20,000 nt of DNA. It comes from Podospora anserina. Its lineage: Eukaryota. Of this stretch, positions 1,929-20,000 are shown in pieces (position 1 is the first letter of the stretch; every line of letters starts with the position of its first letter). The position numbers and the translations under genes are program-made. A model generated the notes under the pieces. It did not search any database, was not told the DNA's origin, and saw only the letters and a program-made list of their open reading frames with translations. The stretch is from positions 7,860,012 through 7,880,011 of the forward strand of contig CM030332.1 of NCBI GenBank assembly GCA_017654855.1. Reading direction: 5' to 3'.

Positions 1929-2132
1929 GCTTATCGACGCATGCCTCGGCTGACGGTGGCCGTGACCGTCCGACATAACACCTCAGACATTCATCTCGCT
2001 GTCTCACCCGCCGGTAGCAGACGCGATTTCCTTGTGCGGCCACAAGGTCGAGTAACGGAGGAAGCAGCGGCCTTCTTTTGGTGATTCAAGGACCCGCCAG
2101 CTTCTGGTGTGGTCCTTCGCAAATCTCCCAAG

Positions 2133-4415
2133 CTGGATTACAAGTATGTGCACGACAGGGAACGCGCTTCGCTCGATAATCCCCCAACGCTCCTTGCAAG
2201 GCGTCACATGGCCGTTACTAACAAGCTGTGGCAAAGCTTCGTTACGGTGGCCGGCTGGTCCTCGCATCAGCCTGTCCAGTCCGTCGGTCGCCCCAAGGTG
2301 GCCCACAACAGATCGCTCTCTAGTATCTTGAGAGCTGCCTCGCCGAAGCCTTCGCCGGGCCACGCTAGGGCCAATTCTATTGCCGAATCGTCCATGACCG
2401 CCGACATTGCCCGTCCTGTTCCCTCTACGCCCCAGCCGCAGCGACTCTTCTCACCCCAGGAACATGATGACGAGAACGACTTGAGCACCATCCCCGACCC
2501 TAGGAGCAGGGCGATGAGCCCTGCAGACCCCGAAACCATGGCCGCCCCCCACCATCCCGATCTCGACCAGGAGGTCGCAACTTTGAGCACCAAGCTCATC
2601 AACGCCATCAACCACCAGACGACTTTGGACGATAATCTCTCTGCGACGAGGTTGGAATTGGAAAAGGCCCGCGAGCAGGTTCGGCAGTTGGAAGTCCAGG
2701 TGGCCGAGCAGAGGGAGATGCTGGCAGGGGACGTTTGGGTTCGAAGGAAAACCGTCGAGGCCGAAAAGAGCCATCTTCTGGCGCGTGTGGCGGAGGAGAA
2801 GCGGGCGCGTGCCGACGTGGAACAGCAGAAAAAGAAGATTGAGCAGGAACTGGAGAACTTGACGGCTGCTCTCTTTGAAGAGGCTAACAAGATGGTTATC
2901 TCGGCCAAAGAGGAGGCTCGAAGAGAACAGGAAGTCCTTCAGCGCAAGAATGATCAGCTGAAATCCCAGCTTGCCGACACGGAAGCCATTCTTAGGTCGC
3001 AACAGGAACAGCTGGTCCAGCTGAAGAACGTTATGGAGCAGATGACGGCAGCGAATGAGGAGCAGGCTCCCCCTACCTGCCCATCGTCACCGACCTTCAG
3101 CAAATTCGAGGACTGCGATGGTCCCTCCGTTACCATGAACCACCCGCACCACACCCATAGTCAGAGTCTCCCGGCTGCGCTTTCGCCGTCATACCCAACC
3201 AGCTTCACGCAGCTGCTACACCCGGTCCTTCGCACAGACTTGGCGGCATTCCGGGATTTCAAGGATCTTGTCCAAACATCGAAGCGGCTCTCGTCCCAGC
3301 GCACTCCTTCGAATGCTTCAAACTCTGGATTGGTCTCACTTGGGCTCGGTCTCGGGTCTGTGGCGTCCCATGTCACGGCGGGCAACCTGTCCAGTACATC
3401 TCTTGCGACCAATGCCACCGCCGGCTCGCCGGCGACCTCGCCGCAGACGCCAAATACCCCCGCTTCCACCGTGAGCACAACCTCTTCTGCCGCCGCGCCT
3501 GTCCTGCCCCATTTGAAGGAGACCAAGTTCTACAAGAGGGTCTTGACGGAGGATATCGAGCCGACCCTTCGATTGGACAGTGCGCCTGGCCTTTCTTGGC
3601 TCGCTCGCCGGAGCGTATTGACTGCCATGACGGAAGGTACATTGGTTGTTGAGCCCGCGCCGTCCACGACCACTGGCAGATTTGGCAGAATCATGAGACC
3701 TGAATTGATCCCATGCTCTCTATGCGGCGAGCAGAGGACTGAAGAGCAGTATCTTCGGACACATCGTTTCCGCACCAGCGAGTCCGACTCGGCACAAAAC
3801 GCATATCCCCTTTGCAAATACTGTCTTGGTCGGGTTCGGTCTACTTGCGATTTCCTCGGGTTTTTGCGTATTGTGAAGGACGGCCATTGGCGTGCCGAGG
3901 ACGAGGATGCTGAACGGGCCGCTTGGGAGGAGAGCGTTCGGTTGAGAGATCAGATGTTCTGGAGCCGCATCGGAGGTGGCGTCGTGCCTGGAGGGCATGT
4001 TCATCGAGGAGTCTCCAGTGTTGCGCCTAGCATCCGCGGCGAGCGAAGCCCCAGGCCGAGCCACGAAATCTCGGAGAAGTTTGCAGATGTACCCGAGGTT
4101 CCCGAACCTGTCGACGCGGCCAAAGAGCTGCCCAAAACGCCTGAGCAGCGCCCCGCAGACGAGACGCTGCCTGTTCCTCAAGCGCCACCTGCGCTTGACA
4201 AAGTGGAGGAGGTTGACGACGACAAGACACCACCTGCCGTGGTCGAGGACGACTCCAAAACACCCCCGGCGGCGATCAAGGACGAAAAACCACCACCCGC
4301 AGTGGAAGAGTCTCAGATCCCGCCACCAGCCCTTGATGAGCCTGTCCAGTCCCTCAAGCCGCAACCATCTGTCCAACAAGTCGAGGTTAAGCCTCTGTCT
4401 TTGACGATACCCTGA
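2133..4415 (+). CDS. SEC2: Rab GDP/GTP exchange factor Sec2 (Sec4 GEF). Proposed join(2133..2143,2237..4415), 729 aa if started at CUG 2133. The start is uncertain: alternatives are AUG 2208 (intron retained) and AUG 2394.
   Basis: Long ORF with a coiled coil carrying the Sec2p-domain signature 'IEQELENLTAALFEEANKMV', the fungal Sec2 blocks 'FYKRVLTEDIEPTLRLDSAPGLSWLARR' and 'WEESVRLRDQMFWSRIGGGVVP', and CxxC pairs (CSLC, CKYC). Stop TGA at 4413-4415. Confidence 0.92.
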   Translation: MDYKYVHDRERASLDNPPTLLARRHMAVTNKLWQSFVTVAGWSSHQPVQSVGRPKVAHNRSLSSILRAASPKPSPGHARANSIAESSMTADIARPVPSTPQPQRLFSPQEHDDENDLSTIPDPRSRAMSPADPETMAAPHHPDLDQEVATLSTKLINAINHQTTLDDNLSATRLELEKAREQVRQLEVQVAEQREMLAGDVWVRRKTVEAEKSHLLARVAEEKRARADVEQQKKKIEQELENLTAALFEEANKMVISAKEEARREQEVLQRKNDQLKSQLADTEAILRSQQEQLVQLKNVMEQMTAANEEQAPPTCPSSPTFSKFEDCDGPSVTMNHPHHTHSQSLPAALSPSYPTSFTQLLHPVLRTDLAAFRDFKDLVQTSKRLSSQRTPSNASNSGLVSLGLGLGSVASHVTAGNLSSTSLATNATAGSPATSPQTPNTPASTVSTTSSAAAPVLPHLKETKFYKRVLTEDIEPTLRLDSAPGLSWLARRSVLTAMTEGTLVVEPAPSTTTGRFGRIMRPELIPCSLCGEQRTEEQYLRTHRFRTSESDSAQNAYPLCKYCLGRVRSTCDFLGFLRIVKDGHWRAEDEDAERAAWEESVRLRDQMFWSRIGGGVVPGGHVHRGVSSVAPSIRGERSPRPSHEISEKFADVPEVPEPVDAAKELPKTPEQRPADETLPVPQAPPALDKVEEVDDDKTPPAVVEDDSKTPPAAIKDEKPPPAVEESQIPPPALDEPVQSLKPQPSVQQVEVKPLSLTIP
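2144..2236 (+). other. Spliceosomal intron at the 5' end of SEC2 (93 nt, in frame, no stop codon)
   Basis: Donor GTATGT at 2144, perfect branch site TACTAAC at 2216-2222, acceptor AAG at 2234-2236. Splicing keeps the frame: AA|C = Asn, then FVTVAGW. Confidence 0.75.
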
Positions 4416-6839: not shown

Positions 6840-8333
6840 TCAAGCAGGCCGGCAATAATTCGCCGGAAAGCTCCCCCTAACCCCCCTCAACTCCCCCACC
6901 CACCAATCCTGGTCCGTCCGCGTCTTGGTCACCACCTTGATCCGCTCCCCTTCATCAAAACTCAGATCTCCCTGCCCCTGCCCAGCAAACGGGTACAGCG
7001 CGACAACCCACTGCTCCTGCACCAACGCGGGCTTCTTCGGCGGCGGTGGAGGAGGAGGCCGTTTCTTCACCACCAACCCCCCGTTGACCATAATACTTCC
7101 CACCGCTGGATTTGGCGAAACAGACCGCTCACGGGCCGGCTTTGAACGATCGATATTCGCTCCGCCGAGGTGAGACGCCGTGGTGAATTCTGTCGGGTTG
7201 GCCCATTCCGGTCGGCGGGAGCTGAAAGACGAAGGGGGTGTTGTTGCCGGGGATCGGGAGGGAGAGGGTGGTTTGAGGGCGTGAGATGATGGGATCCGCA
7301 TGGGGCGGGGTTGGAGGCTGTTGCTGCTGCTGTTGGTGCTGGGGATGAGGCCAGAAGGCGTGCGCCTGTAGCCGTTGGAAGGTGGAGGTTGGGTGTAGCC
7401 GCCTTTGTGGCGGATGAAACTGATGTGTTCGATTTGGGATTGGACGGGGCTGCAGGCGGCGTTCCAGACTGCAATCACGTCTTCCATTGGGGGTGCCGGC
7501 GAGGGGAAGTTGGAGTCCTCGCAGTAGTTGTGGAGGGTGGTGTAATAGAGGCCCAGAAGCCTGTTCTGGATGAGGACCAGAGCAGCGAGGAGGGGAGGGA
7601 CGATGCTGAAGGTCGCCTCGACAATAGGGGGCAGCGTTTGGCGGAGGTGCTCATCTGCTATGTTGAACTCCTAGATGGGAATTAGTCATGAGAGATCCGA
7701 GAGCAACACTTGGCTCTGGGGCTGGCTCACATCAGCCACACGAGATAACTCATCCTGACACTTTGCAAGAGATGCATCTTCCTTGGCGTTGCGTCCGGGT
7801 TTTCGTTGGAGCTTCAGCGTCTTGTCCTGGACCTTTTCGTAGTCCAGTCTTTTGTTCTCGCGCTTCTTGATCGTCTTGCGAATGGGGGTGATGTAGGACC
7901 GAGCATCCGTTGCCGGCCTCAGAATCCGTTCCTCAATGGCCACAATCTCTTGCAACAGTTCTGTCTTGAGGTCGCCATACGTTTCCTTCAAACGGAGAGT
8001 GCGTTCTAGCTGTAACTGAGGGGTCGGTGCTGCCTCACGGCCATGGCCATCCGTGGCTCCCACAATGGGATCATACAGGCCCTCGAACTCAACCACCATG
8101 TTGTGTTGCGAGTTGATCAGGGAATCCCACGAGTCTCTCCATGCACGAGCATTCTCAATCAGCTACTTCTAATATCAGTCATGATTGCACTGCCACCATC
8201 GCGGATTCGATCAACTTACCGTAGCAAGAACCTTGTCTGCATCCTCATAATCCTTCAGGAGAACAGACACTTTGGCATTGTCTCCGGGGCCCTTGTTCAA
8301 GAGCTTGCCAAACTGTCTTTGCATTGACTGCAT
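6840..8333 (-). CDS. BAR-domain + C-terminal SH3 protein, Rvs167/amphiphysin-like. complement(join(6840..7670,7731..8162,8220..8333)), 458 aa.
   Basis: ATG at 8333 (cgccatcATG) gives MQSMQRQFGKL. Intron 8219-8163 (GTAAGT..CTGAT..TAG) and intron 7730-7671 (GTGAGC..CTAAT..TAG) are both phase 0. BAR-like helix 'IRKTIKKRENKRLDYEK', Pro/Ser linker, canonical SH3 'VVALYPFAGQGQGDLSFDEGERIKV...WWVGELRGVRGSFPANYC'. Probably a paralog of RVS167 rather than the ortholog, so no symbol given. Confidence 0.9.
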
Positions 8334-9126
8334 GATGGCGTTTCGACTTCACCACGGTGTGGATGCCTGGTGAGAATCCGAAAAAGGGGGAAACCAGGTT
8401 TTTGTTCGGCCGAGGGGCGTTCGTTTGGGTTGGGGGGAGGGGTCTTCCTGTGCAACACGTAACTTACGCCACATATGCAGCAGCCATGTGTTTGTGGAAG
8501 GGGACAGGTTCAGATCCGGACACAGGAGGTTATCATGAGCCGTCGCCAGGCAGGATGAAAAGAGAAGTATACAGAGAAAACCAGCAAAGGGGTCAAGGTA
8601 ATTAATGTAATTTGAGCTGGCCTGTTTGTCGGCTGTAGGGTCTCACAAGCCGCAGAAACGATGGGCAATGGCGCGAAGGCTCATGTTCGTCCCAACACCA
8701 CTTTTCGAGGCGCAGCTGTTGCGGAACGGGGTCTGGCAACTGTTAAAAACAGGGTGAAGAGAACAAAAAACCGGCCCAAAAAGGTCAGTGATATGCGTTG
8801 ATGAACATTTTAGAAAAAGAGAAGGAGGGGGTGCCAGCCAACGGAGTGTTTGCCCAGCACGCCCAGGTAACGAGCGGGAGGCTCCTGCACTGCCCGGCAC
8901 CATTTCCGAGTGCCACGAGAAGTGGACTGCAGTGGGCGAACCCCCCCAAGCAAAGGTCCGATCCACTGGCGAGCCTTTCTTGAAACAGGGCCAACTGGCA
9001 ACGTCAACTTGTGTGAAGTCTTACTTTTGCCCGCTGGCCAACCAATCATGGCTAGGAAAAGCCTAAATAGCGGATATCTGCACAGGCCTTGTGTGAGTTT
9101 GGATGGGTGGTCAAAGGTGGGTTGGG

Positions 9127-9174
9127 GTCACGTGAAGGCGCGCAGCAACGCGACCCCAATCTCCCCGCGCGCGT
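9127..9174 (+). promoter_or_regulatory. Cluster of candidate cis-elements upstream of the DUF2439 gene: GTCACGTGA E-box (9127-9135), MCB-like ACGCGA (9148-9153), CCAAT (9156-9160), CGCGCGCGT (9166-9174)
   Basis: Motifs read directly, 115-165 nt upstream of ATG 9290 within the 956-bp divergent intergenic region. The binding factors (Cbf1/bHLH, MBF, HAP complex) are inferred. Confidence 0.45.
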
Positions 9175-9289
9175 CAATCGATTCGGAGTCCAAATGTGCT
9201 GCCTACCTGGCAATTTACCGGAATCACCCTATCAATCACCAGTCAAAGGCCATGTGGTAGTATCGACCATCTCGACATGCTTTTCGACA

Positions 9290-10618
9290 ATGCCCGCCAT
9301 CACTTCGTCGGGAGCCAGGCCAGAGCTCGCCGGCGGTGGGAGCAGCGCCCCGGTGTTGGAATTTCTCTGTCTCTTCACCCACGACTTGCAAAGGAAACAA
9401 AAACGATGGCAAGATGGACGCCTCAAGTATCATACCTTCAACAAGCGGGTTATGGTGTACGATGACCGGGGAAACTCTGTGGGCGACATGCACTGGCAGC
9501 GAGACTGGGACTTTGACGAGGGCGAGGAAATCAAGCTGGATCGGGGAGGGGTCATTGTGCAGGTTCAGGAGTGTGTTGGACGTCAAGACCAGGATTTGAC
9601 TGATCTGTTGGACAAAAGAGCAAAGGAAAAGGAGGAACGTCAAAGCCGTACGGCGACGAGGGTGGCTCCTGCGGCCTTTGGACTACGCACGCCAGCAATT
9701 CCATCAAGGGTATATCCAGCTCAAATTGCCGGTCCCCGATCGCATCACAGGCGTCTTGACCAGGTCCTAACTCCGACGGGCCACCATGGACGAGCTCTCG
9801 TGCCGACTGAATCACCTTTTGAGCAGCGTCAGCGAGACCAGGAGACTCCTGATGCCAACAAGGAGACTCCCTTGGCGAAAAGGAGGAAACACGACGATAC
9901 GCCCCCGAGCAAGCTAGGCTACGCCCAGAGTTTGTTTGGTGCTCCTCTCACTCTCTCGGCGGTACCCATGAGCTCAGCCCCTGTCCGGCGGCCTGCGGCA
10001 TCAGCGACGCGGATGCATTCTGGCCCTGCGTCCTCCCAAGAAAATGATTCACCGGCGGGAGAGCCCGAAGAGCGGGAATCCCACCCGTCAAAGAGGAGAA
10101 AGCGTGATGACACGCCGCCTAGTAAGATGGGGTATTCCCAGAGTCTGTTTGGCGCCACCCTCAACTTATCAGCTGTCCCTATGAGTTCTGCCCCGGCTCT
10201 CCGACGAACTACATCGGTGGCACGAGGGCATACAGAACCACCCTCCTCTCAAGAACATGGGCCACAGCCACAAGAACCGACCAGTGGGGTCCAGGAGATT
10301 CCAGTTAACCCTTCTGTACGAGCTGGTCTTTCACGGTCTACTGTAACAGCGCCTCTCTTGAAGACTCGTTTACCGCCCTTGGGAAGCGCCTCGAAACCTG
10401 CAGCAAAAAACGAGGCTGATAAGGCCCGCGCAAGACAGAGAGATGTTGCGGTTGAGTTTCCGGCGGAGGATACTCGCATGAATTCTGACCGCGGGGACAG
10501 TGATTTATCTGCGACGAGGAACCGAAACGCAGCGAAATATATCGACAGAGGTCAGATCCGTGGCCAGAAAGTTGCACCAAAGCCGAAAAAGCCACCTCCG
10601 GTGGTAATTCTTGATCAC

Positions 10619-10650
<32 letters not shown>

Positions 10651-13039
10651 CGATGTGGAGGGCGGAGAGGATGACACGAATCTCAACGACAAGAACCAGG
10701 CGCCTATACAGGACAAAGATATTGGAGAGAGTCGCACGCTTCCCAGGAACATGCCCAAACAACGTTCCAAGAAGCCCACGACCAAGACGCCCTTCACAAA
10801 TGCAGCCCCTGCCACGAAACAAGCGAAATCATCGAAGAGCACAAGGAACAGCAAAACAAAAAAGGCCCAGGACACTGGCTCTAAACTCCCAGTCGAAGAT
10901 GAAAGAGCACCCGAGGGTCTTGGACTTAATATGCCACCTGAAGGGCCAAGGGCACAGTTGCGTATCCAACCACACCAGAAGCGTGGCCTGCTTGTGTCTA
11001 ATGAGAAAGGAAACAAGTCCAAAAAGCCCAAAGTACGCCATGCTCAATCCCATGCCGAGTTGGAATACGATGGAGAGCCTTTTGTTCCAAATCCAGCGCC
11101 TATGACCATGTCAGAGGAGGACGGTCCGTTTGCGTCCTTTGTCGATGCTCCACAAGAGGCACAGACAGTCCCCAAGCCCAAAACACCGTCTCTCCTGCAA
11201 GATGTACATAGCTTGGGAGCCAGACACGAGAGCCTGGCAAATTCTCAGGCCAGTAATGAGGATCAGCCATCAAACATTCGGGCCAATGATGACCCATCTC
11301 TGGACTCTAACAAGACTTTCTCCGTTCCTCCCCCTGCCGCTTCAAAAACCAATATGATGGGGGCCAATGACGAAGGCACTGCAGGCCTTTACGGCGCTGA
11401 GCGCTCAAGAAAGAGATCACCAGGTCAGCAAAGGACGGTCGATTTGGTCAAAGATACCACCCAGGATCGAGGGAGCACCGTTCAACCTCTGGAGTTGCCG
11501 CGAGCCCCGACAGGACCGATCGCTGAACCGCAAACCAGCCCCAGGTATCTGCAAGGCAAAATGACAGATGAAGAGGACGCCAGCGAGAGGCCTCGAGCTC
11601 GTCTACCCAGGAAAAAGGTGACATTGGCACTGGATGAAAGTGACAATGACAGCCTGCCAACTCGCAAAACCAAGAAGCGAATGACAATGGCATTAGACGA
11701 AAGCGATGATGAAAGGCCAGCAAGCTGCCAGAGCACCAGCCGAGATATATCGGTATCAGAAGAGAGTGCGGGTGAGAAGAGGCCAATGCGCCGCAGTAAC
11801 AGACGCACAGCGAAAGCATTTGTTGGAAGCGATGATGAACGCCCGCCTACACGTCAGACCAGGAGCAACACAACAGTAGCAGTTTCGGAAGAAAGCGACA
11901 GCGAGGAGCTTCCCCAAGTCCCTGTGGCTCCAAGGCTAGCCAGACTCAGGAAGAGTGTCAAAAGCAGGGAAATCATTGGCTTCATACCGTCGAGTTCCCC
12001 CGTCATGGAGGTGGCTACCGTAGCAGAGCCTCGGCCAGCCCCTATTCCGACTTCTTTGCCAGCTCCTACCCCAGCTCCTCTGCCCTCTTCTTTGCCACCT
12101 CTTTCCCTAATTCCCGGTTTGATGGACACACCCCCAGGTCTAGAGGCCAACGACATGAGCTCTCCGGGCTATTCCAATGGCCCGAAGGCTCCCGCGCCAG
12201 GAACAGGCATCCCCAAACCAGAGCCCGTGACTGTGCCAGTCGTACAAAGTCTACAAACCAGCAGGGTGTTGCCCCCTTTGCCCGCCTTCGAGTCAACAAC
12301 AGACGTACCTTCGGCTGTTCGGCGGGACAACTTACAACCTACCATCACAAGCCGGGAAACACCGGTCAAGGAGTCTGCCCAAGCTCCCACGCCAGCCCAC
12401 CTCGAACAATCTATCTGCGATTTCCTGAGTGGCGAGCCCCCGCACCACCACCTCGCTTCTGCTCCGGGGGCAGATAAGGCTGGGCAGTCTGCAGTTGCTC
12501 ATCAGCTGACCATGCCATCGCTCGACACGAGCTCGACTTCTGTATCGATGCGACCAGTTTCTGCCAAGGGACCGAATTTGATTGCAGAAGAAGCGGAGGG
12601 TGTCTCAAGGTCACACGAAGCCGTCAGTCATCAAGAGGTGCATGAGAACCCAATTGCCGTCCCGCGGGATGTTGGGGTTTCTCTGGTTGCATCAAATAAC
12701 CCCAACGGTCAAGCACCGCAGGTTCCACCTGCTGCTCCTACTAGACCGAAAATCGCGAACCCGGCCACTCGCGGCCGTAAGGCTGCCCTCAAATCACACG
12801 CTGCTGGTCAAGTTCCCCAATCTATTCTACCGTTGGAACCCGCCCCTGTACGGCTGACTGTGCGGCCACCTGAGACAGCACGGCCCGGAGCAGCCGCTGG
12901 CGGGCGCCCTAGATATAAGATGCAGCTACCGGGCTTTACCTCGGCGAAGGAGACAGCAAAGGACTCTGGGGTGGATGTCGGGCCTTGGAGCAGGGAGGCC
13001 CATGACCTCTTCGGGAGTGGCCGACCTTCTGAGGCTTAG
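9290..13039 (+). CDS. DUF2439-domain protein (Mte1/Dbl2/ZGRF1-N-like, likely DNA recombination/repair factor), 1249 aa, single exon, mostly disordered
   Basis: First in-frame ATG at 9290 (acaATG). N-terminal 'EFLCLFTHDLQRKQKRWQDGRLKYHTFNKRVMVYDDRGNSVGD...EGEEIKLDRGGVIVQV' matches the DUF2439 pattern. Long low-complexity body, C-terminal 'GPWSREAHDLFG', stop TAG at 13037-13039. Confidence 0.88.
10619..10654 (+). repeat. Coding (GAT)10-GAC-GAT microsatellite encoding poly-Asp
   Basis: Read directly; in frame within the DUF2439 CDS. Confidence 0.95.
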
Positions 13040-14870: not shown

Positions 14871-17101
14871 GACCCGGATGGGAGGGCCGGACGGGGGCTG
14901 GGGGCCCAATGAGAAATTGGAAACAACGAGGGAGAGCTTATGAAAGATTTCCATATTTTATTACAACCCGGAAAAATAAGGCCGAGCGAATGAGGTTGTA
15001 AAATGGGCAAGGTGGTACAAGGCACAGACAGAGGGGTGGGGGTTTAGACAAAACAAAAACGGCCGAAAAGATATCTTTTCTTATGCATGCTGGGGAATTG
15101 CGGATGGGATGGGGGTAGGGGGGAGGATAGGCAACGCGTGGTGGTTTGGTAGCAGATGCGAGGGGATGACGAAGCAAAGTGACGGGAGAGATGGGTGTGA
15201 GAGATGGGATGAACCAGACAGAACCAAGAACTTGTTTGACGCACGTCGGGATCAAAATCTCTCTCTCAAACTACCTTGTAGGGCTGAATAGAAAGATGAG
15301 ACCTGGTGAGTGGAGTGGTTCCACAGAATGGAAGTGTGGAACAGGGAAGAGGGAAAGCATCAGCGCTAAGCCGTGTGGGGATTAGAAGATGGTTGATGAC
15401 TTCGTAGAAGGGCAGTTGGATCACAAGATGTTTGGGGATGGGAGTCGATTCGATCGGGCGAGAGGAACGGGGGGATGTGATGGGATTACAAAGACTTACG
15501 ATCGTGGGCTATTACTAGAGTATCAGAAAATGGATGCGGTCATCGTAGCATTCATTCTGAGAGGGAAAAACGTCGGGGAGCGAGCTGTGCGATGGTTGAA
15601 CGAGAGAGTTGGAAGTTGAATGGAAATTCCATTTGAGTTTAGCGTTCCCGAACGCCACTTGGTTGTCGGCCGCCAGTGGACACAATGGACAGCAGCCTCG
15701 CCTTAGTGCAAAAACATGGCTGTCTACGCCTCTCCTAATTGCATTAGCCCAGTAGCACACTTACACAGCACGAACAAAGTGCGGGGGCATCTCCCCCCAT
15801 CTCCAGCTCCTCCTCACCACTCGTCAATTCCCGTCATTTTGCCCGGCTCTTCGTGGTGCGCGAACTACTCCCCACACAGAGCAGCCCGAAACACTCGTCC
15901 GCAACACCCAAAGAAGCACTTTCCATTGCGGCCCTGTCTGGCGGTGAGGAAGAAAGCCGTCGTACGCTCTCACGGCTCCCTCCTCCACGTTCCGGCTCGC
16001 CGAGTCTCCGCACAATACAACGGCTACGCCCTTTGGAAGCAGTCGCTTTCAACGGTTTGGCCCGGGGGGATGATGCGGCGTTTCTGGTCTTGTGTCCCCC
16101 CCCCCCGCTCCCCCCCTGGCTTACGTGTTGGTTGGAGCTTCAGCTTGTCGCGCTCTTCCTGTTGGTCTTTAATCACCATTGAACGCCGCACGTCTACCTT
16201 CACACACCCGGCTCGCCATGGCCCCCTGGCCATTACCTAGCTGCTCCGAGTGAGAGCCACAACGGATGGAGGCGGGTTGGAATGGGTGTGGATGGTGGAT
16301 TACCTGCGGTGTGGATTATGGTTTTGGGTTGCACTCACTCCATGTCACTAGACACCCCCATCTCCCACCTCGCCGCCCATCGCCCCGTCAGTCTGTCGGC
16401 TCTGGGGAACGTTCGTCTGCCATCACGTTCGTGAATCGGAAGGGGAGGGGGGGTGGTGAAGCCTCGCATGGGTGGGGGGAGGGGGTCACCGCTCGGACTC
16501 AACGGCGCCGTACACTACACACCTCTCAACCATCGAGAACAGCGGTAGGTACGTGATGGGAGTGCGCCATGCTTCCTTTTCTAGGTTGATCACACGAAAG
16601 CCCAGAGAAGTCTCTTGCTTGCTTGGTTCGTCAACATCCTTGCTCGAGCATGGATGATATTTAGTTCCGTTAGGTCCCGACTGCTCGGGTCGCCTTCTTT
16701 TGTTCGGCATGTTGATCTCAGCGCGCTGTTGCCAGAGCACAATCAGGCTGTGTGTGCCTTGGGGTGTGGTCTGCCTTGTCTTGCTGGCAGCTACAAGATT
16801 CACACCGGCCCGCCGCTTCTTTTTTGACTCTTGCCTACCCCGGGATTTTTGTTTCTCTGCCCTCCATCATCTGTCTTTGTGACCTTTGCAACTGGTTGCG
16901 GGGGTGGTGATCGATCCAACCTACAACGTTGTCGTCCGCTATTCTCATTTGTTGCCCCTTTCTTTTGTCATACTATATCGATACAACTTTCCTCCTTTTG
17001 CTCGTTGGGTGCTACCTGATACCACAGCCTTGCCTCACCATTTTCACGCCCTCGGCTCGGAGCTCGTCACCTTGCCTGCTTCCCCGCCGACAGCTTTCTC
17101 G

Positions 17102-19038
17102 ATGTCCCGGCCGCAAAAACGCAAGCTCGCCTCCGGCGTGTCTGAGCCTAGGCCGAAGCGATTCTCGTGGCGAGGCAAGGGTCCAGTCCCTCGGCCTACC
17201 CCAAGCGAGGAGACCCAGGCGCTCTACGATATCTGGCAGCAGGCCGAGCGTGAAGTGAACCTAGCAGACCTGCGGAGGTTGAACGAGCCACCGACCTTTG
17301 TCGGCCATGACGAGTTTCTCCTCTCACCCTCGCAAGCAACTTCGAGATCTCGTTCCCCTTCCTGCGCCAGCACCACTCACTCGGTCACAAAGGCGATGAA
17401 TGGTGTCGACCTCAACCAACAAGGATCGAAGTCCAAAAAGAAACGGGCCACGCGTACCAAACCGCTGAGCAAGCCTGCCAAGGCCAAAGCAGCGTTCATA
17501 CGAAAGCTGGGAGCTTGTGAGGACTGCAGGAAACGACGTGTCGGGGTAAGATTGCTCCACCTTTGTCTGCGTCACTTGGGTTGCCTCTAACCTGGCCTTG
17601 CAGTGCACTCGCGAACACTGGGATCTTCATCTCTTCGAGGAAGCATGGAGGGTCAAATACGGACCGTTGCCCGACGAGGAGGATATCAAGCCTACTCCGC
17701 TACCCGAATTAGGCGTGGAATATTTCAAGACCGAGTTCCAACTCACCCGGATTCTAACCCCCGAGGTCGCCGCCGCACCACCGCCTCCAGACCCGAGCAA
17801 CCGGTACCAGGCTCGGTTCAGTGAACTGGATGACCTTGCCGGTGTTGGAGGGCAGGTCGTCTCCGCTGCTGGCGCGCCGCTGGGACCGGTCGATGAGGAG
17901 ATTGACATCGACAATATGCTGCAGACATTGCAGCATGAGGACCACGAGGAGCCGCCGCTCATCCCTGTCGAGTTTACCGACTTCTTTGACACCGACTTCG
18001 ATCTGGACTTTGGCGGCGCTGACATTTTTCAACCAGCCCCCGAGACGAGCTTCAACCCCGAGCCCGCAGACGATAGCTGGCTTGGAGACACAGATTATCA
18101 GTGTGTGCCTGTAGGCAAACAGACCTACAACTTTGTCGGACAGCTGCAGTTTGAATGTCTCGGAGCCTCTGCCGCCGAGCATGACGGTGTGGAATTCCCT
18201 TGTGCGCAACGCTTCAACACGTTAGACTTGCTCATCGAGCACTTCTACAGCGCGCATTATGTTTTTGAGAATCACGAGGAGAGAGGAAGGTGCCTGAGCT
18301 GCTTGCTCGACTGGGATCTTACCAGCGCCGAGGAGTTAACCGAGCCTTGCAAGCAGTGTGGCCAGGACCGGCACGAGAAGTGGTACTGGGGATTCATCAG
18401 CAAGGGCACACCGCCGAGCTTGACTTCGGGGACCACGTCGGTGAGGGTTGCCAGTCAAGACGGATATGGCTACGGGATGCAGCAGGGAGGGTCGCCGTTT
18501 GGGAACCAGTCGACCGATCTCTACGGCCATGGCAGCGGGGGTGGGTATGACTTTGGTGGAGGATTCCTCTTTGGGGACTACGGGGACGGGCGCAATCAGT
18601 ACTACAAGGCGGCCCAGCACCTGACGAAGCAGCCGTACAAACCCACGATCAACAGAGGCAGCAAAGCGATGCCGGCTTTTGGGTCTAATCCGGCTTCCTC
18701 TATCTTCGTTGGATTCTCCCTTCTTTCGGTCATCGCCACACGCCTGTATTTGGCCGTCGGAGCTCCCTATCAGCCAGCCTCTTCATTGACGGTGTCGAGC
18801 CTAAGTTGGTGGGCGGCTTTCGTCCCAGAGTTGTCGGTTGTTTGCATCGCTGCCGGGTTGGTAGCGATGTGGCTGTTTCGACATGTTGTTCAGTATCGGG
18901 AGGATTCGGTATGTCCTTGCCCTTCTTGTCTCTGGTTGGCGTGATGATTGCTAATGTAAATGACAGCTGTATGCTGCCCTGAGTATAGCCAGAGCGGAGG
19001 CTCTTGAGGGTTCCGTGAGAGCTGCAGTTGCTGCTTAA
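17102..19038 (+). CDS. Uncharacterised zinc-finger, transcription-factor-like protein with two predicted C-terminal transmembrane helices. join(17102..17545,17604..18908,18967..19038), 606 aa.
   Basis: Intron 17546-17603 (GTAAGA..CTAAC..CAG) and intron 18909-18966 (GTATGT..CTAAT..CAG) are both 58 nt and phase 0; they join track ORFs 16886-17590 and 17598-18944 and a last exon ending TAA at 19036-19038. The product has NLS-like basic patches, 'RKLGACEDCRKRRVG|CTREH', an acidic/Phe-rich segment, a C2H2-type finger, CxxC-x15-CxxC and two hydrophobic stretches. Confidence 0.85.
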
Positions 19039-19380
19039 AAGACTTTGCGTGCGTTTTTCTTCTGTCTGGGCTTACACGGTAGATTACTATGACGCAAGTC
19101 AGAATTTTGGTTTTTGGTTTTTGGATACCTCTCCCACGCTTCTTGTGTTTCCTATCCCCTTCCTTTCCTTTACTCGACACATGGTGACTCGAGTGTCGGG
19201 TGGTGGTTTCGATACTTTCGGCCATTTCTTTTCTTCCTAATTCTCCTTGCAATGTTTCTTTCCCTGTACTGGCTTCTTAATGTCATGGAACCATCGGAGG
19301 ACAACTGCCGGGTTTGGAGGAGGAAAATGTGTATTCAGCGACATTGGGTGGAATACTGCTTTTTGTACTGTCGAGTCATT

Positions 19381-19432
19381 GGTGATGAGGTAGGTGATGA
19401 GGTGATGAGGTGATGATGAGGTGATGAGGTGA
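19381..19432. repeat. Imperfect tandem repeat of GGTGATGA (5 full copies plus a partial)
   Basis: Copies start at 19381, 19393, 19401, 19409 and 19420. Confidence 0.9.
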
Positions 19433-20000
19433 CGAGTTGCCGAGACGCTTCCGACTTCTTCTTCTTCTTGGAGAACACATGGGAGTATGACGGGCGAGAT
19501 GACTTTTACAACCTACCCTTATATATACCTCTTTCTTCTCAACCTTGTCGGCGCCTACATGGATGTTTTCCAATTCTACCTCGCATTTCTGCTCCTATCA
19601 ATATCGCATCATGCCTACTGCCTACAGATCGTTTCATGCCAGTAACTTTAGTATGGGTAAAATTCCGCCTGTCACATTGCTCAATCGAAAGAGAGCGAGG
19701 CTTTGTTTGTGTGACCTGCAGGAGTAAAGCATGGATCAAAGCTTGAACACTGCCACGCAACTGCGAGATTGCATTGGACGGGAACCGACAGGCAGCAGAA
19801 AGACGGTGGAAGGTGCATCACCACCACCTCATCGGTTTAAAGTGCGGGGAAGGGAAGGAGTCATCGAGCTGGAGATGTTGAGATAGGTTTTGTTGACCTT
19901 GATGGCGCCTTTGAGAAACTTTGTCGCCTGATCCGAATGCAGGTTGTCGGGTTTGTGAAAGGGGAAAGGAGGAGGCGAAAAGAGAGCAAAGGGGCTGTTT

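What the first reader, a model, noticed from the sequence alone, without database searches (positions are those of the whole stretch)
17102..19038. Candidate undescribed membrane-tethered zinc transcription factor (SREBP/Sre2-like topology without a bHLH)
Seen in the spliced 606-aa protein, from N to C: NLS-like 'RPQKRK' and 'RPKR'; a basic helix plus Cys motif (KKKRATRTKPL..KAAFIRKLGACEDCRKRRVGCTREH); an acidic/aromatic segment like an activation domain (EFTDFFDTDFDLDFGGADIF); two further Zn modules; a Gly/Tyr/Gln-rich linker; two hydrophobic segments, IFVGFSLLSVIATRLYLAVGA (~18702-18764) and LSWWAAFVPELSVVCIAAGLVAMWLF (~18801-18878), separated by a ~12-aa loop; and a ~30-aa tail. Established: fungal membrane-bound TFs include the SREBPs (bHLH + 2 TM; Dsc E3 ligase and rhomboid processing, e.g. 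S. pombe Sre1/Sre2, Aspergillus SrbA) and Spt23/Mga2 (1 TM; Rsp5/proteasome). Inference: this protein is a latent ER/Golgi hairpin-anchored TF of another DNA-binding class, released by regulated proteolysis. I do not recognise it as a named gene. No canonical [LP]PxY Rsp5 motif was seen, which fits a Dsc/rhomboid/SPP route better.
Basis: partly seen in the sequence, partly recalled or inferred. Interest (0 to 1): 0.8.

Follow-up and report, generated by a model that had tools for sequence, protein, structure and literature searches.

The report
Conserved fungal zinc-finger protein with membrane hairpin
This Podospora gene encodes an uncharacterised protein, conserved in many filamentous fungi, with three zinc-binding modules at the front and two membrane-type helices at the end; it may be a membrane-held gene regulator, but no experiment has tested that.

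Summary
The 3-exon gene (17102-17545, 17604-18908, 18967-19038, +) gives a 606-aa protein. It is 594/606 identical to a 606-aa hypothetical protein of Podospora pseudoanserina. Contigs from 4 of 4 laid runs skip both 58-nt GT..AG introns and join all exons.

A whole-library profile search found 278 clusters (114 at E<=1e-10). The 30 representatives looked up are all named 'hypothetical' or left unnamed, and the named ones come from Sordariomycetes and Leotiomycetes. A later search added a Neurospora crassa homologue.

Across 34 divergent members, 11 of the 12 invariant columns are Cys or His. They define three modules: a basic C-x2-C-x6-C-x(1-3)-H knuckle, a long-loop C2H2, and a CxxC...CxxC ribbon. 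Of 50 unselected proteins with the N motif and zinc domain, 35 have at least one C-terminal hydrophobic segment and 27 have two. Flanking charges fit an N-in/C-in hairpin.

No Pfam family matches. The knuckle resembles only the first half of a Zn2Cys6 cluster, below threshold. The second helix is only marginally hydrophobic. DNA binding, localisation and proteolytic release are untested. An inner-nuclear-membrane anchor or a non-transcriptional adaptor fits about as well.

Verdict: a real, undescribed family. The architecture is supported; the 'latent transcription factor' reading stays a hypothesis (about 0.35).

The parts
16861..19500 (+). Minimum extent of the spliced transcript-like contig (5' leader from at least 16861; 3' part beyond 19500)
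   Evidence: the X1 contig of 2624 nt lies on 16861-17544, 17603-18907 and 18966-19500. The contigs of X5, X9 and X13 start before 16700 and also run on past 19500.
17102..17545 (+). Exon 1, ATG to codon 148
17546..17603 (+). Intron 1 (58 nt, GT..AG), phase 0. It splits the Cys motif between G148 and C149.
   Evidence: Many ORF-type database fragments end at profile position 146-148, which suggests the intron position is conserved.
17604..18908 (+). Exon 2, codons 149-583
18909..18966 (+). Intron 2 (58 nt, GT..AG)
18967..19038 (+). Exon 3, codons 584-606 plus TAA
17108..17161 (+). N-terminal basic, bipartite-NLS-like motif (aa 3-20: RPQKRK ... RPKR)
   Evidence: aa 1-35 has 10 K/R and 1 D/E. 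A similar R/K cluster right after the start Met is visible in about a third of the 34 aligned members (read by eye).
17207..17284 (+). Conserved helix, aa 36-61 (family consensus ETQxLYN...)
   Evidence: AF2 helix 36-61, block pLDDT 91-95; conserved in the alignment
17429..17660 (+). N-terminal basic zinc-knuckle module, aa 110-167 (interrupted by intron 1). It comprises a basic run, GPL/KPL, a helix, G-A-C-x2-C-R-x-R-R-V-x-C-x(1-3)-H and a second helix.
   Evidence: R134, C139, C142 and H153 are invariant and C149 is at least 90% conserved in 34 sequences. In a 23-sequence module alignment L, R, C, C, R, V, C and H are invariant. AF2 pLDDT is about 90. Weak likeness to the first 13-15 positions of Zn2Cys6.
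17877..18089 (+). Acidic/aromatic disordered segment, aa 240-310
   Evidence: 0 K/R, 21 D/E, 8 F/W/Y. pLDDT is below 50 for most of it. Strong acidity is specific to the Podospora clade (net 13-16 per 50 aa, against a family median of 7).
18087..18404 (+). Central zinc domain, aa 310-415. It holds a long-loop C2H2 (C333, C348, H361, H366) followed by a C4 ribbon (C378, C381, C397, C400).
   Evidence: All eight ligands are invariant in 34 sequences. AF2 gives a beta-strand/helix domain with pLDDT 89-96. Weak PDB profile matches to RanBP2/NZF-type fingers, E = 0.1-1.
18405..18674 (+). Disordered Gly/Tyr/Gln-rich linker, aa 416-505. It begins with the conserved PSLTSG..S.RV motif.
   Evidence: pLDDT below 50 for 420-509; alignment
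18690..18764 (+). Hydrophobic helix 1, aa 511-535
   Evidence: KD maximum 1.97. AF2 helix 511-533. Rough insertion energy +1.45 kcal/mol. A hydrophobic segment is present at this position across the family.
18801..18881 (+). Hydrophobic helix 2, aa 548-574, with the conserved motif P-E-L-S-V-x-C-I-A-A-G-L...W-L-F-R-H-V
   Evidence: KD maximum 2.04. AF2 helix 548-596. P556, L558, S559, C562, I563, A564, A565, G566, W571 and H575 are invariant in the 5-sequence alignment. Rough insertion energy is +1.06 (17 residues) to +2.8 (19 residues).
18882..19035 (+). C-terminal tail, aa 575-606 (interrupted by intron 2). It is basic next to the helix and holds an (L)E-x-x-G-S-V-R motif shared with distant members.
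   Evidence: alignment of the C-terminus; 84 K/R against 31 D/E after helix 2 in 27 sequences

Best explanation
The gene encodes a member of an undescribed protein family of filamentous ascomycetes.

Shown: it has three conserved zinc-ligand sets, an N-terminal basic knuckle module, long disordered linkers and a C-terminal pair of hydrophobic helices. A joined, intron-free form spanning all exons is present in assembled runs.

Inferred:
- There is no signal peptide, and the charges are positive on both outer flanks. The roughly 510-residue N-terminal part and the short tail should therefore face the cytosol or nucleoplasm, and the two helices should form a hairpin in an ER-type membrane.
- The most likely function is a membrane-held zinc-finger regulator of transcription. 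The basic knuckle (related to the DNA-contacting first half of a Zn2Cys6 cluster) and the C2H2/ribbon domain would bind nucleic acid. The acidic/aromatic stretch would activate transcription. The N-terminal basic motifs would drive nuclear import once the soluble part is cut from the hairpin by regulated proteolysis.
- The strongly conserved second helix, rich in small residues, and the conserved tail would be the recognition elements for that step.
For: Gene model and expression form:
- The spliced joints appear in 4 of 4 laid runs.
- The protein is 594/606 identical to an annotated 606-aa protein.

Family:
- 278 clusters at E<=1e-3, 114 at E<=1e-10 and 30 at E<=1e-30.
- The 30 representatives looked up (10 per call) are all 'hypothetical', 'uncharacterized' or unnamed. 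The named ones come from Sordariales, Thozetella, Magnaporthiopsis, Xylariales, Zalerion and five Leotiomycete genera.
- A Neurospora crassa homologue has the same layout.

Zinc ligands:
- Of the 12 invariant columns in 34 sequences, 11 are Cys or His.
- AF2 models the N module and the zinc domain at pLDDT of about 90.

N module:
- Aa 105-152 carry 17 K/R against 3 D/E.
- Sub-threshold Zn_clus matches to profile positions 2-15 occur in 7 of 34 members, best E = 0.0039.
- Of the 6 PDB matches at E<=10, 5 are Zn2Cys6 proteins (Put3 twice, Rsc30, Rsc3 twice).
- All ten best named Atlas clusters for the module are Zn_clus clusters, at a low score of 0.77.

Membrane part:
- Of 50 unselected listed proteins with the N motif and zinc domain, 27 have two or more C-terminal hydrophobic segments, 8 have one and 15 have none.
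- 14 of those 15 end 126 residues or fewer after the zinc domain, so they are probably truncated.
- No hydrophobic stretch occurs in the first 60 residues of any of the 34 sequences. Charges in 27 sequences: 67 K/R vs 15 D/E before helix 1, 45 vs 58 in the loop, and 84 vs 31 after helix 2.
- Helix 2 is the best-conserved part of the C-terminal third.

Precedent:
[quoted passage not shown] Passages were read in PMC12926077.
Against: - No tool result shows DNA binding, nuclear function, membrane insertion or cleavage.
- No Pfam family reaches its threshold in this protein or in any of the 34 members.
- Foldseek found 0 PDB matches at E<=0.001.
- The knuckle has one zinc site, not the binuclear six-Cys cluster. 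A single long-loop C2H2 plus a ribbon is as typical of protein, ubiquitin or RNA binding as of DNA binding (weak RanBP2/NZF-type matches).
- The same N module is fused to a caspase-like domain in a second family without hydrophobic segments.
- On an unweighted biological hydrophobicity sum (scale values recalled by me) the two segments score +1.45 and +2.8 kcal/mol. In the family the second-best segment has a median of +3.6 and is <=2.0 in only 6 of 34 members. A full hairpin is therefore not certain.
- The strongly acidic stretch is specific to the Podospora clade.
- The 34-sequence alignment was chosen partly for having C-terminal hydrophobic segments, so its helix and charge counts are biased. 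One search gives the unselected count.
- The neighbouring genes (Sec2-type GEF, BAR-SH3 protein, ZGRF1-like protein) give no functional hint.
Confidence: 0.35

Rival explanations
1. Resident inner-nuclear-membrane (or nuclear-envelope) zinc-finger protein. The N-terminal NLS-like motifs and the long disordered linker carry the hairpin-anchored protein through the pore membrane. It stays anchored there and binds DNA, chromatin or nuclear-pore components, with no proteolytic release.
For: - The layout is basic N-terminal motifs, folded modules, a disordered linker of about 95 residues, then membrane helices.
- This matches the NLS-plus-unfolded-linker route described for yeast Heh1/Heh2. Only the abstracts of PMC4695851 and PMC4569319 were seen, in the listing.
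- The C4 ribbon gives its best, though insignificant, PDB profile matches to RanBP2-type fingers of Nup153 and RanBP2 (E = 0.14-0.6).
- The linker holds a few FG-type dipeptides.
- A membrane-anchored DNA-binding protein treated as a transcription factor in Fusarium (a Bqt4 homologue) exists. Only the listing of PMC10375492 was seen.
Against: - No LEM/HeH, MSC or KilA-N domain is found.
- The RanBP2-type match is not significant. This protein lacks the W-x-C start and has a 15-residue rather than a 10-residue spacer.
- The high conservation of helix 2 and of the tail motif is not explained by simple anchoring.
Confidence: 0.25
2. Membrane-anchored zinc-finger adaptor with no role in transcription. 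For example, it could be a ubiquitin-, RNA- or protein-binding scaffold on the cytosolic face of the ER, Golgi, mitochondria or peroxisomes. The basic knuckle would then be an interaction or targeting module.
For: - The N module is promiscuous. It is joined to a caspase-like domain (P0139, Pfam Peptidase_C14 E = 5.7e-5, above cut-off; relatives P0116, P0123, P0101, P0129) and to other unannotated architectures.
- The best sequence matches of the C4 ribbon include ubiquitin-binding NZF fingers (TAB2, Npl4, HOIP), at E = 0.17-1.3.
- Several conserved short linear motifs (D-L-x-G-[IV]-G; P-S-L-T-S-G; the tail G-S-V-R) point to protein-protein contacts.
- The helices are moderately hydrophobic and have basic flanks.
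Against: - The very basic module with Zn2Cys6-like C-x2-C-R-x-R-K-V-K-C wording is more typical of nuclear regulators.
- So are the N-terminal NLS-like motifs and the acidic/aromatic stretch.
- The NZF-type matches are not significant, and Pfam zf-RanBP is absent at E<=1 in all 34 members.
Confidence: 0.25
3. The C-terminal hydrophobic segments do not span a membrane. They could be a monotopic or amphipathic association, or a buried helical pair. The protein would then be an ordinary soluble nuclear zinc-finger protein.
For: - The rough insertion energies are positive (+1.45 and +2.8 kcal/mol).
- Helix 1 holds an Arg, or His/Glu in orthologues.
- AF2 confidence for the helices is only about 70-80.
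Against: - These are the only hydrophobic stretches in the protein. The best window elsewhere scores +9.5.
- They recur at the same place in 35 of 50 unselected homologues, with the remainder mostly truncated.
- 22 of 34 members have a segment at <=1.0 kcal/mol.
- The flank charges follow the positive-inside rule.
Confidence: 0.07

Closest known systems
Fungal SREBPs, especially S. pombe Sre2 (membrane-bound bHLH factors released via the Dsc E3 ligase / Rbd2 route)
   Same: Predicted topology: a large cytosolic N-terminal regulatory part, two helices with a short loop, and, as in Sre2, no large C-terminal sensor domain. The concept is a latent factor released by proteolysis (PMC12926077, passages read).
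   Different: There is no bHLH-zip domain and no sequence similarity. The putative nucleic-acid-binding parts are zinc modules. Cleavage, Dsc dependence and localisation are untested.
Zn2Cys6 (Gal4-type) binuclear cluster, Pfam PF00172
   Same: The wording of the first sub-site is shared: A-C-x2-C-R-x-R-[RK]-V-x-C preceded by a basic stretch. Sub-threshold matches to profile positions 2-15 occur in 7 of 34 members. Put3, Rsc3 and Rsc30 are the only recurrent PDB matches.
   Different: The second three cysteines are absent. A His 1-3 residues after the third Cys is invariant instead, so at most one zinc is bound. No member reaches the Pfam gathering score.
Yeast inner-nuclear-membrane proteins Heh1/Heh2 (NLS + unfolded linker + two membrane helices)
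   Same: Basic import-type motifs, long disordered linkers and two C-terminal helices. The transport principle comes from the abstracts of PMC4695851 and PMC4569319 (listing).
   Different: No LEM/HeH or MSC domain. The order and spacing of the elements differ. Localisation is unknown.
Mga2/Spt23 (single C-terminal anchor, Rsp5/proteasome processing)
   Same: The idea of an ER-anchored latent activator (recalled knowledge).
   Different: No IPT/ankyrin domains. There are two helices rather than one. There is no PY motif in this protein, and none is positionally conserved in the family (10 of 34 members have one, at scattered places).
RanBP2/NZF-type zinc fingers
   Same: Many family members have W-x-C-x2-C-x10-C-x2-C. 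The profile gives its best PDB matches to Nup153, RanBP2, TAB2, Npl4 and HOIP fingers.
   Different: E-values are 0.1-1.3, which is not significant. Pfam zf-RanBP is not matched at E<=1 in any of the 34 members. The Podospora protein lacks the Trp and has a 15-residue spacer.

Membership tests
Zn2Cys6 fungal binuclear cluster (PF00172) | Six cysteines, C-x2-C-x6-C-x5-12-C-x2-C-x6-8-C, binding two zinc ions | tested here: not met
   Only C139, C142 and C149 are present, followed by the invariant H153. No further Cys occurs before residue 315.
Zn2Cys6 fungal binuclear cluster (PF00172) | Pfam gathering score (21 bits) | tested here: not met
   There is no hit in the window's exon proteins or in P0004. 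7 of 34 members hit at E<=1, with a best of 17.7 bits, covering profile positions 2-15 only.
SREBP (Sre1/Sre2/SrbA) | bHLH-leucine-zipper DNA-binding domain | tested here: not met
   No HLH family appears at E<=10 or at E<=1 in the 34 members.
SREBP (Sre1/Sre2/SrbA) | Two membrane helices separated by a short lumenal loop, with the N-terminus cytosolic | tested here: inconclusive
   Two hydrophobic helices lie at aa 511-535 and 548-574, with a 12-residue loop, no signal peptide and positive outer flanks. However, the helices are only marginally hydrophobic. No dedicated topology predictor was available and no experiment exists.
SREBP (Sre1/Sre2/SrbA) | Release of the N-terminal part by regulated proteolysis (Dsc E3 ligase / rhomboid or S1P/S2P) | not testable with these tools
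   This needs westerns in wild type and in dsc, rbd and spp mutants.
Classical C2H2 zinc finger (PF00096) | C-x2-4-C-x12-H-x3-5-H | tested here: not met
   The spacing is C333-x14-C348-x12-H361-x4-H366, and the Cys-Cys spacer ranges from about 6 to 20 in the family. PF00096 is matched by 1 of 34 members at E = 0.17. The His half of the pattern is met.
RanBP2/NZF zinc finger (PF00641) | W-x-C-x2-C-x10-C-x2-C, recognised by the profile | tested here: inconclusive
   The pattern is present in several members but not in this protein. PDB profile matches are at E = 0.1-1.3. There is no Pfam match at E<=1.
LEM/HeH inner-nuclear-membrane proteins (Heh1/Heh2/Man1) | N-terminal HeH/LEM domain and C-terminal MSC domain | tested here: not met
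   No Pfam match. The tail is only 33 residues long.
Mga2/Spt23 | IPT/TIG and ankyrin domains with a single C-terminal anchor | tested here: not met
   No Pfam match. There are two hydrophobic segments.

The most novel reading that the evidence does not exclude
The basic single-zinc 'half-cluster' knuckle (R-x-G-P-L...K-A-A-L-x-R-K-L-G-A-C-x2-C-R-x-R-R-V-x-C-x(1-3)-H) is a new fungal DNA-binding or nuclear-signalling module, and it is always kept latent by a C-terminal restraint. In this family the restraint is a membrane hairpin cut by intramembrane or Dsc-type proteolysis. In the sister family it is a caspase-like domain. Together these would form a new class of protease-released regulators in Sordariomycetes and Leotiomycetes, including Neurospora crassa.
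Probability: 0.15. Interest if true: 0.8.

Novelty: new variant of a known kind. Interest (0 to 1): 0.55.

Why it matters
Only two kinds of membrane-bound transcription factors are established in fungi: SREBPs and Mga2/Spt23.

A census of Aspergillus nidulans predicted that 24 of 520 putative factors carry membrane helices, and 402 of the 520 remain functionally uncharacterised (bioRxiv 10.1101/2021.03.09.434684, passages read).

This family would be a third kind with a different zinc-based front end, if its function is confirmed. It is conserved from Podospora to Neurospora, Magnaporthiopsis and Leotiomycetes, and a joined, intron-free form of the gene is present in assembled runs. It can be tested directly in model fungi that have deletion collections.

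It also defines an unannotated zinc module and a conserved helix motif, both of which deserve profile models whatever the function turns out to be.

Tried and rejected
- Whole-genome search: no genome is held for this window. Paralogues and Dsc/rhomboid genes could therefore not be looked for.
- Word-index search with the 34-sequence profile gave only the 6 close relatives already known.
- Foldseek against the PDB: 0 matches at E<=0.001, only generic zinc ribbons.
- ESM Atlas, whole protein: best score 0.80 (DUF7896, homeobox/C2H2 clusters). This is below the level the tool calls meaningful. Pfam did not confirm DUF7896 or zf-C2H2_fungi.
- Copper-fist idea. I recalled a C-x2-C-x8-C-x-H zinc module in Ace1/Amt1-type factors. 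No copper-fist chain appeared among the PDB matches at E<=10, and no Pfam hit appeared. Dropped.
- RanBP2/NZF idea: kept only as a weak lead.
- PY motif: absent here and not positionally conserved.
- Gene neighbourhood: Sec2-type GEF, BAR-SH3 and ZGRF1-like genes, with no cluster logic.
- Earlier findings of this scan: nothing by place or by sequence.
- Sequencing runs: no RNA holder is listed. The tool marks X1-X15 as 'RNA?' by guess.
- Literature:
  - 'Pa_1_21150', my guess at the P. anserina gene name from the relative's locus tag, gave 0 papers.
  - The searches found no description of this family.
[quoted passage not shown] It could not be linked to or separated from this family because no sequence or identifier mapping was available.
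- Supplementary tables of the papers were not open.
Full report
**1. What is in the sequence**

Reading 16500-20000 and translating the frames gives three exons on the + strand:
- 17102-17545 (148 codons);
- 17604-18908 (435 codons);
- 18967-19038 (23 codons plus TAA).

The two introns are 58 nt each, with GT..AG ends and CTAAC/CTAAT-type branch sites. Joined by coordinates in a script, the CDS is 1821 nt and gives 606 aa without an internal stop.

The protein is 594/606 identical to a 606-aa annotated hypothetical protein of Podospora pseudoanserina (QC764_121150, P0004). The window is therefore from a species of the Podospora anserina group.

Public runs hold the stretch. The tool lists no holder on record as RNA and marks X1-X15 as 'RNA?' by guess. 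I laid four of these runs, from four study codes. In each, one contig skips exactly both introns and runs from upstream of the ATG to beyond 19500. The joined, intron-free form therefore exists, and both 'halves' lie on one molecule.

**2. It is a family, not a one-off**

Close orthologues of 54-97% identity occur in Triangularia, Cercophora and Apiosordaria, and a 29%-identical protein comes from an unnamed JGI record.

A profile of five sequences, searched against 1.84 billion representatives, found 278 clusters at E<=1e-3, 114 at E<=1e-10 and 30 at E<=1e-30. I looked up 30 representatives, 10 per call. All are 'hypothetical', 'uncharacterized' or unnamed. The named ones come from:
- Sordariales: Podospora didyma, Lasiosphaeria, Thermothelomyces, Humicola, Echria, Corynascus, Mycothermus, Copromyces/Pseudoneurospora;
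- other Sordariomycetes: Thozetella, Magnaporthiopsis, a Xylariales sp., Zalerion;
- Leotiomycetes: Lachnellula, Rhexocercosporidium, Acephala, Amylocarpus, Venustampulla.

A further search found homologues in Neurospora crassa, N. hispaniola and Sordaria brevicollis. These have the same layout.

Many short hits end at profile position 146-148, which is the exon-1 end. These look like ORF-type fragments cut at a conserved intron.

**3. Conserved anatomy**

In an alignment of 34 full-length members (mean column identity 21%), the invariant columns are R134, C139, C142, H153, C333, C348, H361, H366, C378, C381, C397 and C400, and C149 is at least 90% conserved. This gives three ligand sets:
- (a) a knuckle, C-x2-C-x6-C-x(1-3)-H, inside a very basic module (17 K/R against 3 D/E in aa 105-152). 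The family wording is R-x-G-P-L...K-A-A-L-x-R-K-L-G-A-C-x2-C-R-x-R-[RK]-V-x-C-x-H-x-D...F-E.
- (b) a C2H2 with a long, variable Cys-Cys loop.
- (c) a CxxC...CxxC ribbon.

AlphaFold2 on this alignment, with P0004 as the target, gave a mean pLDDT of 60.4. Confident regions are:
- a helix at aa 36-61 (pLDDT 91-95);
- the N module at aa 120-170 (about 90);
- a strand/helix zinc domain at aa 310-415 (89-96);
- two helices at aa 511-533 and 548-596 (about 70-80).

Everything else is predicted disordered.

Further conserved short motifs are visible in the alignment:
- an R/K cluster right after the start Met, in about a third of members;
- a Ser/Thr-rich S-R-S-P-S-C-A-S-T-T-H-S stretch;
- D-L-x-G-[IV]-G;
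- P-S-L-T-S-G-x-S-x-R-V just after the zinc domain;
- the helix-2 motif P-E-L-S-V-x-C-I-A-A-G-L...W-L-F-[RK]-H-V;
- a tail motif, E-x-x-G-S-V-R.

The strongly acidic/aromatic stretch (aa 240-310: 0 K/R, 21 D/E, 8 aromatic residues) is specific to the Podospora clade. It reaches net 13-16 per 50 residues, against a family median of 7.

**4. The membrane part**

Kyte-Doolittle 19-residue maxima are 1.97 (aa 515-533) and 2.04 (aa 552-570). No other window in the protein exceeds 1.4.

An unselected count was made on the 50 listed proteins that carry both the N motif and the zinc domain:
- 27 have two or more hydrophobic segments C-terminal to the zinc domain;
- 8 have one;
- 15 have none. Of these 15, 14 end 126 residues or fewer after the zinc domain, too short to reach the helices, so they are probably truncated models or contig ends. 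One (P0049) is long enough and truly lacks them.

None of the 34 aligned members has a signal-peptide-like stretch in its first 60 residues. In the 27 members with two segments, the flanks carry 67 K/R against 15 D/E before helix 1, 45 against 58 in the loop (mean 24 residues), and 84 against 31 after helix 2. This fits the positive-inside rule for an N-in/C-in hairpin. These 34 sequences were chosen partly for having such segments, so the charge count is descriptive only.

Against a clean hairpin, I summed the centre values of the Hessa biological scale without position weighting. The scale values were recalled by me. The sums are +1.45 kcal/mol for helix 1 and +2.8 (19 residues) or +1.06 (17 residues) for helix 2. 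In the family the best segment has a median of +0.5 (22 of 34 members at <=1.0). The second segment has a median of +3.6 (6 of 34 at <=2.0). The best window elsewhere has a median of +10.5.

One true membrane helix is therefore well supported. The second helix is the better conserved but is marginal, and may need the first for insertion or may be re-entrant. No dedicated topology predictor was available.

**5. What the zinc modules resemble**

Pfam gives nothing for this protein.

Among the 34 members, 7 match Zn_clus at E<=1. The best is 0.0039 and 17.7 bits, against a cut-off of 21, and the match always covers only profile positions 2-15, that is the first three cysteines.

A profile of the N module alone found six PDB chains at E<=10. 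Five of them are Zn2Cys6 proteins (Put3 twice, Rsc30, Rsc3 twice), at E = 1.2-7.8, which is not significant. The Atlas feature search of the module gave only Zn_clus clusters among its ten best named hits, at a low score of 0.77.

The module thus looks like the DNA-contacting first half of a Zn2Cys6 cluster that has swapped the second half for a single His. It fails the family's defining six-Cys feature.

The whole-family profile gives its best PDB matches for the C4 ribbon to RanBP2/NZF-type fingers (Nup153, RanBP2, TAB2, Npl4, HOIP, RBM5/10), at E = 0.1-1.3. Several members have the W-x-C-x2-C-x10-C-x2-C pattern, but this protein does not. Pfam does not confirm the assignment. Foldseek on the model found nothing at E<=0.001.

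**6. The N module is mobile**

A second family of 566-636 aa (P0139, P0116, P0123, P0101, P0129 and fragments) shares only the Ser/Thr stretch and the basic knuckle. It continues into a common C-terminal domain that Pfam recognises as Peptidase_C14 in P0139 (E = 5.7e-5, 23.3 bits, cut-off 21.4). It has no hydrophobic segments.

Other listed proteins carry the module in yet other unannotated contexts. This cuts both ways:
- It shows an autonomous module, as a DNA-binding or targeting domain would be.
- It also shows that the module is not tied to membrane anchoring.

**7. How it most likely works**

Shown:
- the gene model and its intron-free joined form;
- the conserved zinc-ligand sets;
- the basic module;
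- the disordered linkers;
- the conserved C-terminal hydrophobic helices with positive outer flanks.

Inferred:
- The N-terminal part of about 510 residues faces the cytosol or nucleoplasm.
- The protein is a membrane-held zinc-finger regulator.

I rank the readings as follows:
- (i) A latent transcription regulator released by proteolysis, probability 0.35. This is favoured by the Zn2Cys6-like basic knuckle, the NLS-like motifs, the acidic stretch, the unusually conserved small-residue-rich helix 2 and tail, and the fungal SREBP precedent (PMC12926077, passages read).
- (ii) A resident inner-nuclear-membrane protein using an NLS-plus-linker route as in Heh1/Heh2, probability 0.25 (abstracts of PMC4695851 and PMC4569319, listing).
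- (iii) A non-transcriptional membrane-anchored adaptor, probability 0.25.
- (iv) Not membrane-spanning, probability 0.07.

I confirmed that absence, but it is weak evidence.

**8. Novelty**

No characterised or named member appeared among the 30 representatives looked up plus the hits. No Pfam model covers the protein. My literature searches found no description, and supplementary tables were not open.

A census of A. nidulans factors notes 24 of 520 with predicted membrane helices, and 402 of the 520 remain functionally uncharacterised.

If the function is confirmed, this is a new variant of a known kind: a membrane-bound transcription factor with a new DNA-binding class. As it stands it is a real, conserved, undescribed family with a well-supported architecture and an untested function. 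Interest: 0.55.

Noticed in passing
P0139, P0116, P0123, P0101, P0129 (database proteins; not in the window): A sister family joins the same basic zinc-knuckle module to a caspase-like C-terminal domain. Only P0139 (Triangularia verruculosa) passes Pfam Peptidase_C14. In the printed sequences only P0139 keeps a Cys in the I-L-D-C-A-Y stretch, where the other four have M-D-A-A-Y. Two of the five also lack the His of the Y-x-G-H-S stretch. Reading these positions as the catalytic dyad is my inference from recalled caspase motifs.
   Followed up: partly
window 2085-4415 (+), 6840-8162 (-), 9071-13039 (+): The neighbouring genes are a Sec2p-type Rab GEF (Pfam Sec2p, E = 9e-28), a BAR plus SH3 (amphiphysin/Rvs167-like) gene in two ORF pieces, and a ZGRF1-like N-terminal-domain protein of more than 1300 aa. 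They have no evident functional link to the finding.
   Followed up: partly
window 19380-19440: An imperfect tandem run of GGTGATGAG-type units lies in the 3' region, inside the stretch covered by the spliced contigs.
   Followed up: no
window 17064: The contig of run X13 reads C where the window has T, 38 nt upstream of the ATG. The other three runs agree with the window. This is probably a strain difference.
   Followed up: no
window 17546-17603 and database fragments: Dozens of short database proteins end at profile position 146-148, exactly at the exon-1/intron-1 boundary that splits the Cys motif between G148 and C149. The intron position therefore appears conserved across the family. It also means ORF-based gene calls systematically truncate these proteins.
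   Followed up: partly
Literature lead (Neurospora crassa NCU04487): [quoted passage not shown] Whether it is the N. crassa member of this family (P0173) could not be checked.
   Followed up: partly
window 17760-17810, 18405-18450 and 18990-19020 (aa ~224-231, 417-430 and 593-601): Three short linear motifs are conserved far beyond the Podospora clade and have no known meaning: D-L-x-G-[IV]-G in the first linker, P-S-L-T-S-G-x-S-x-R-V after the zinc domain, and E-x-x-G-S-V-R in the tail.
   Followed up: no
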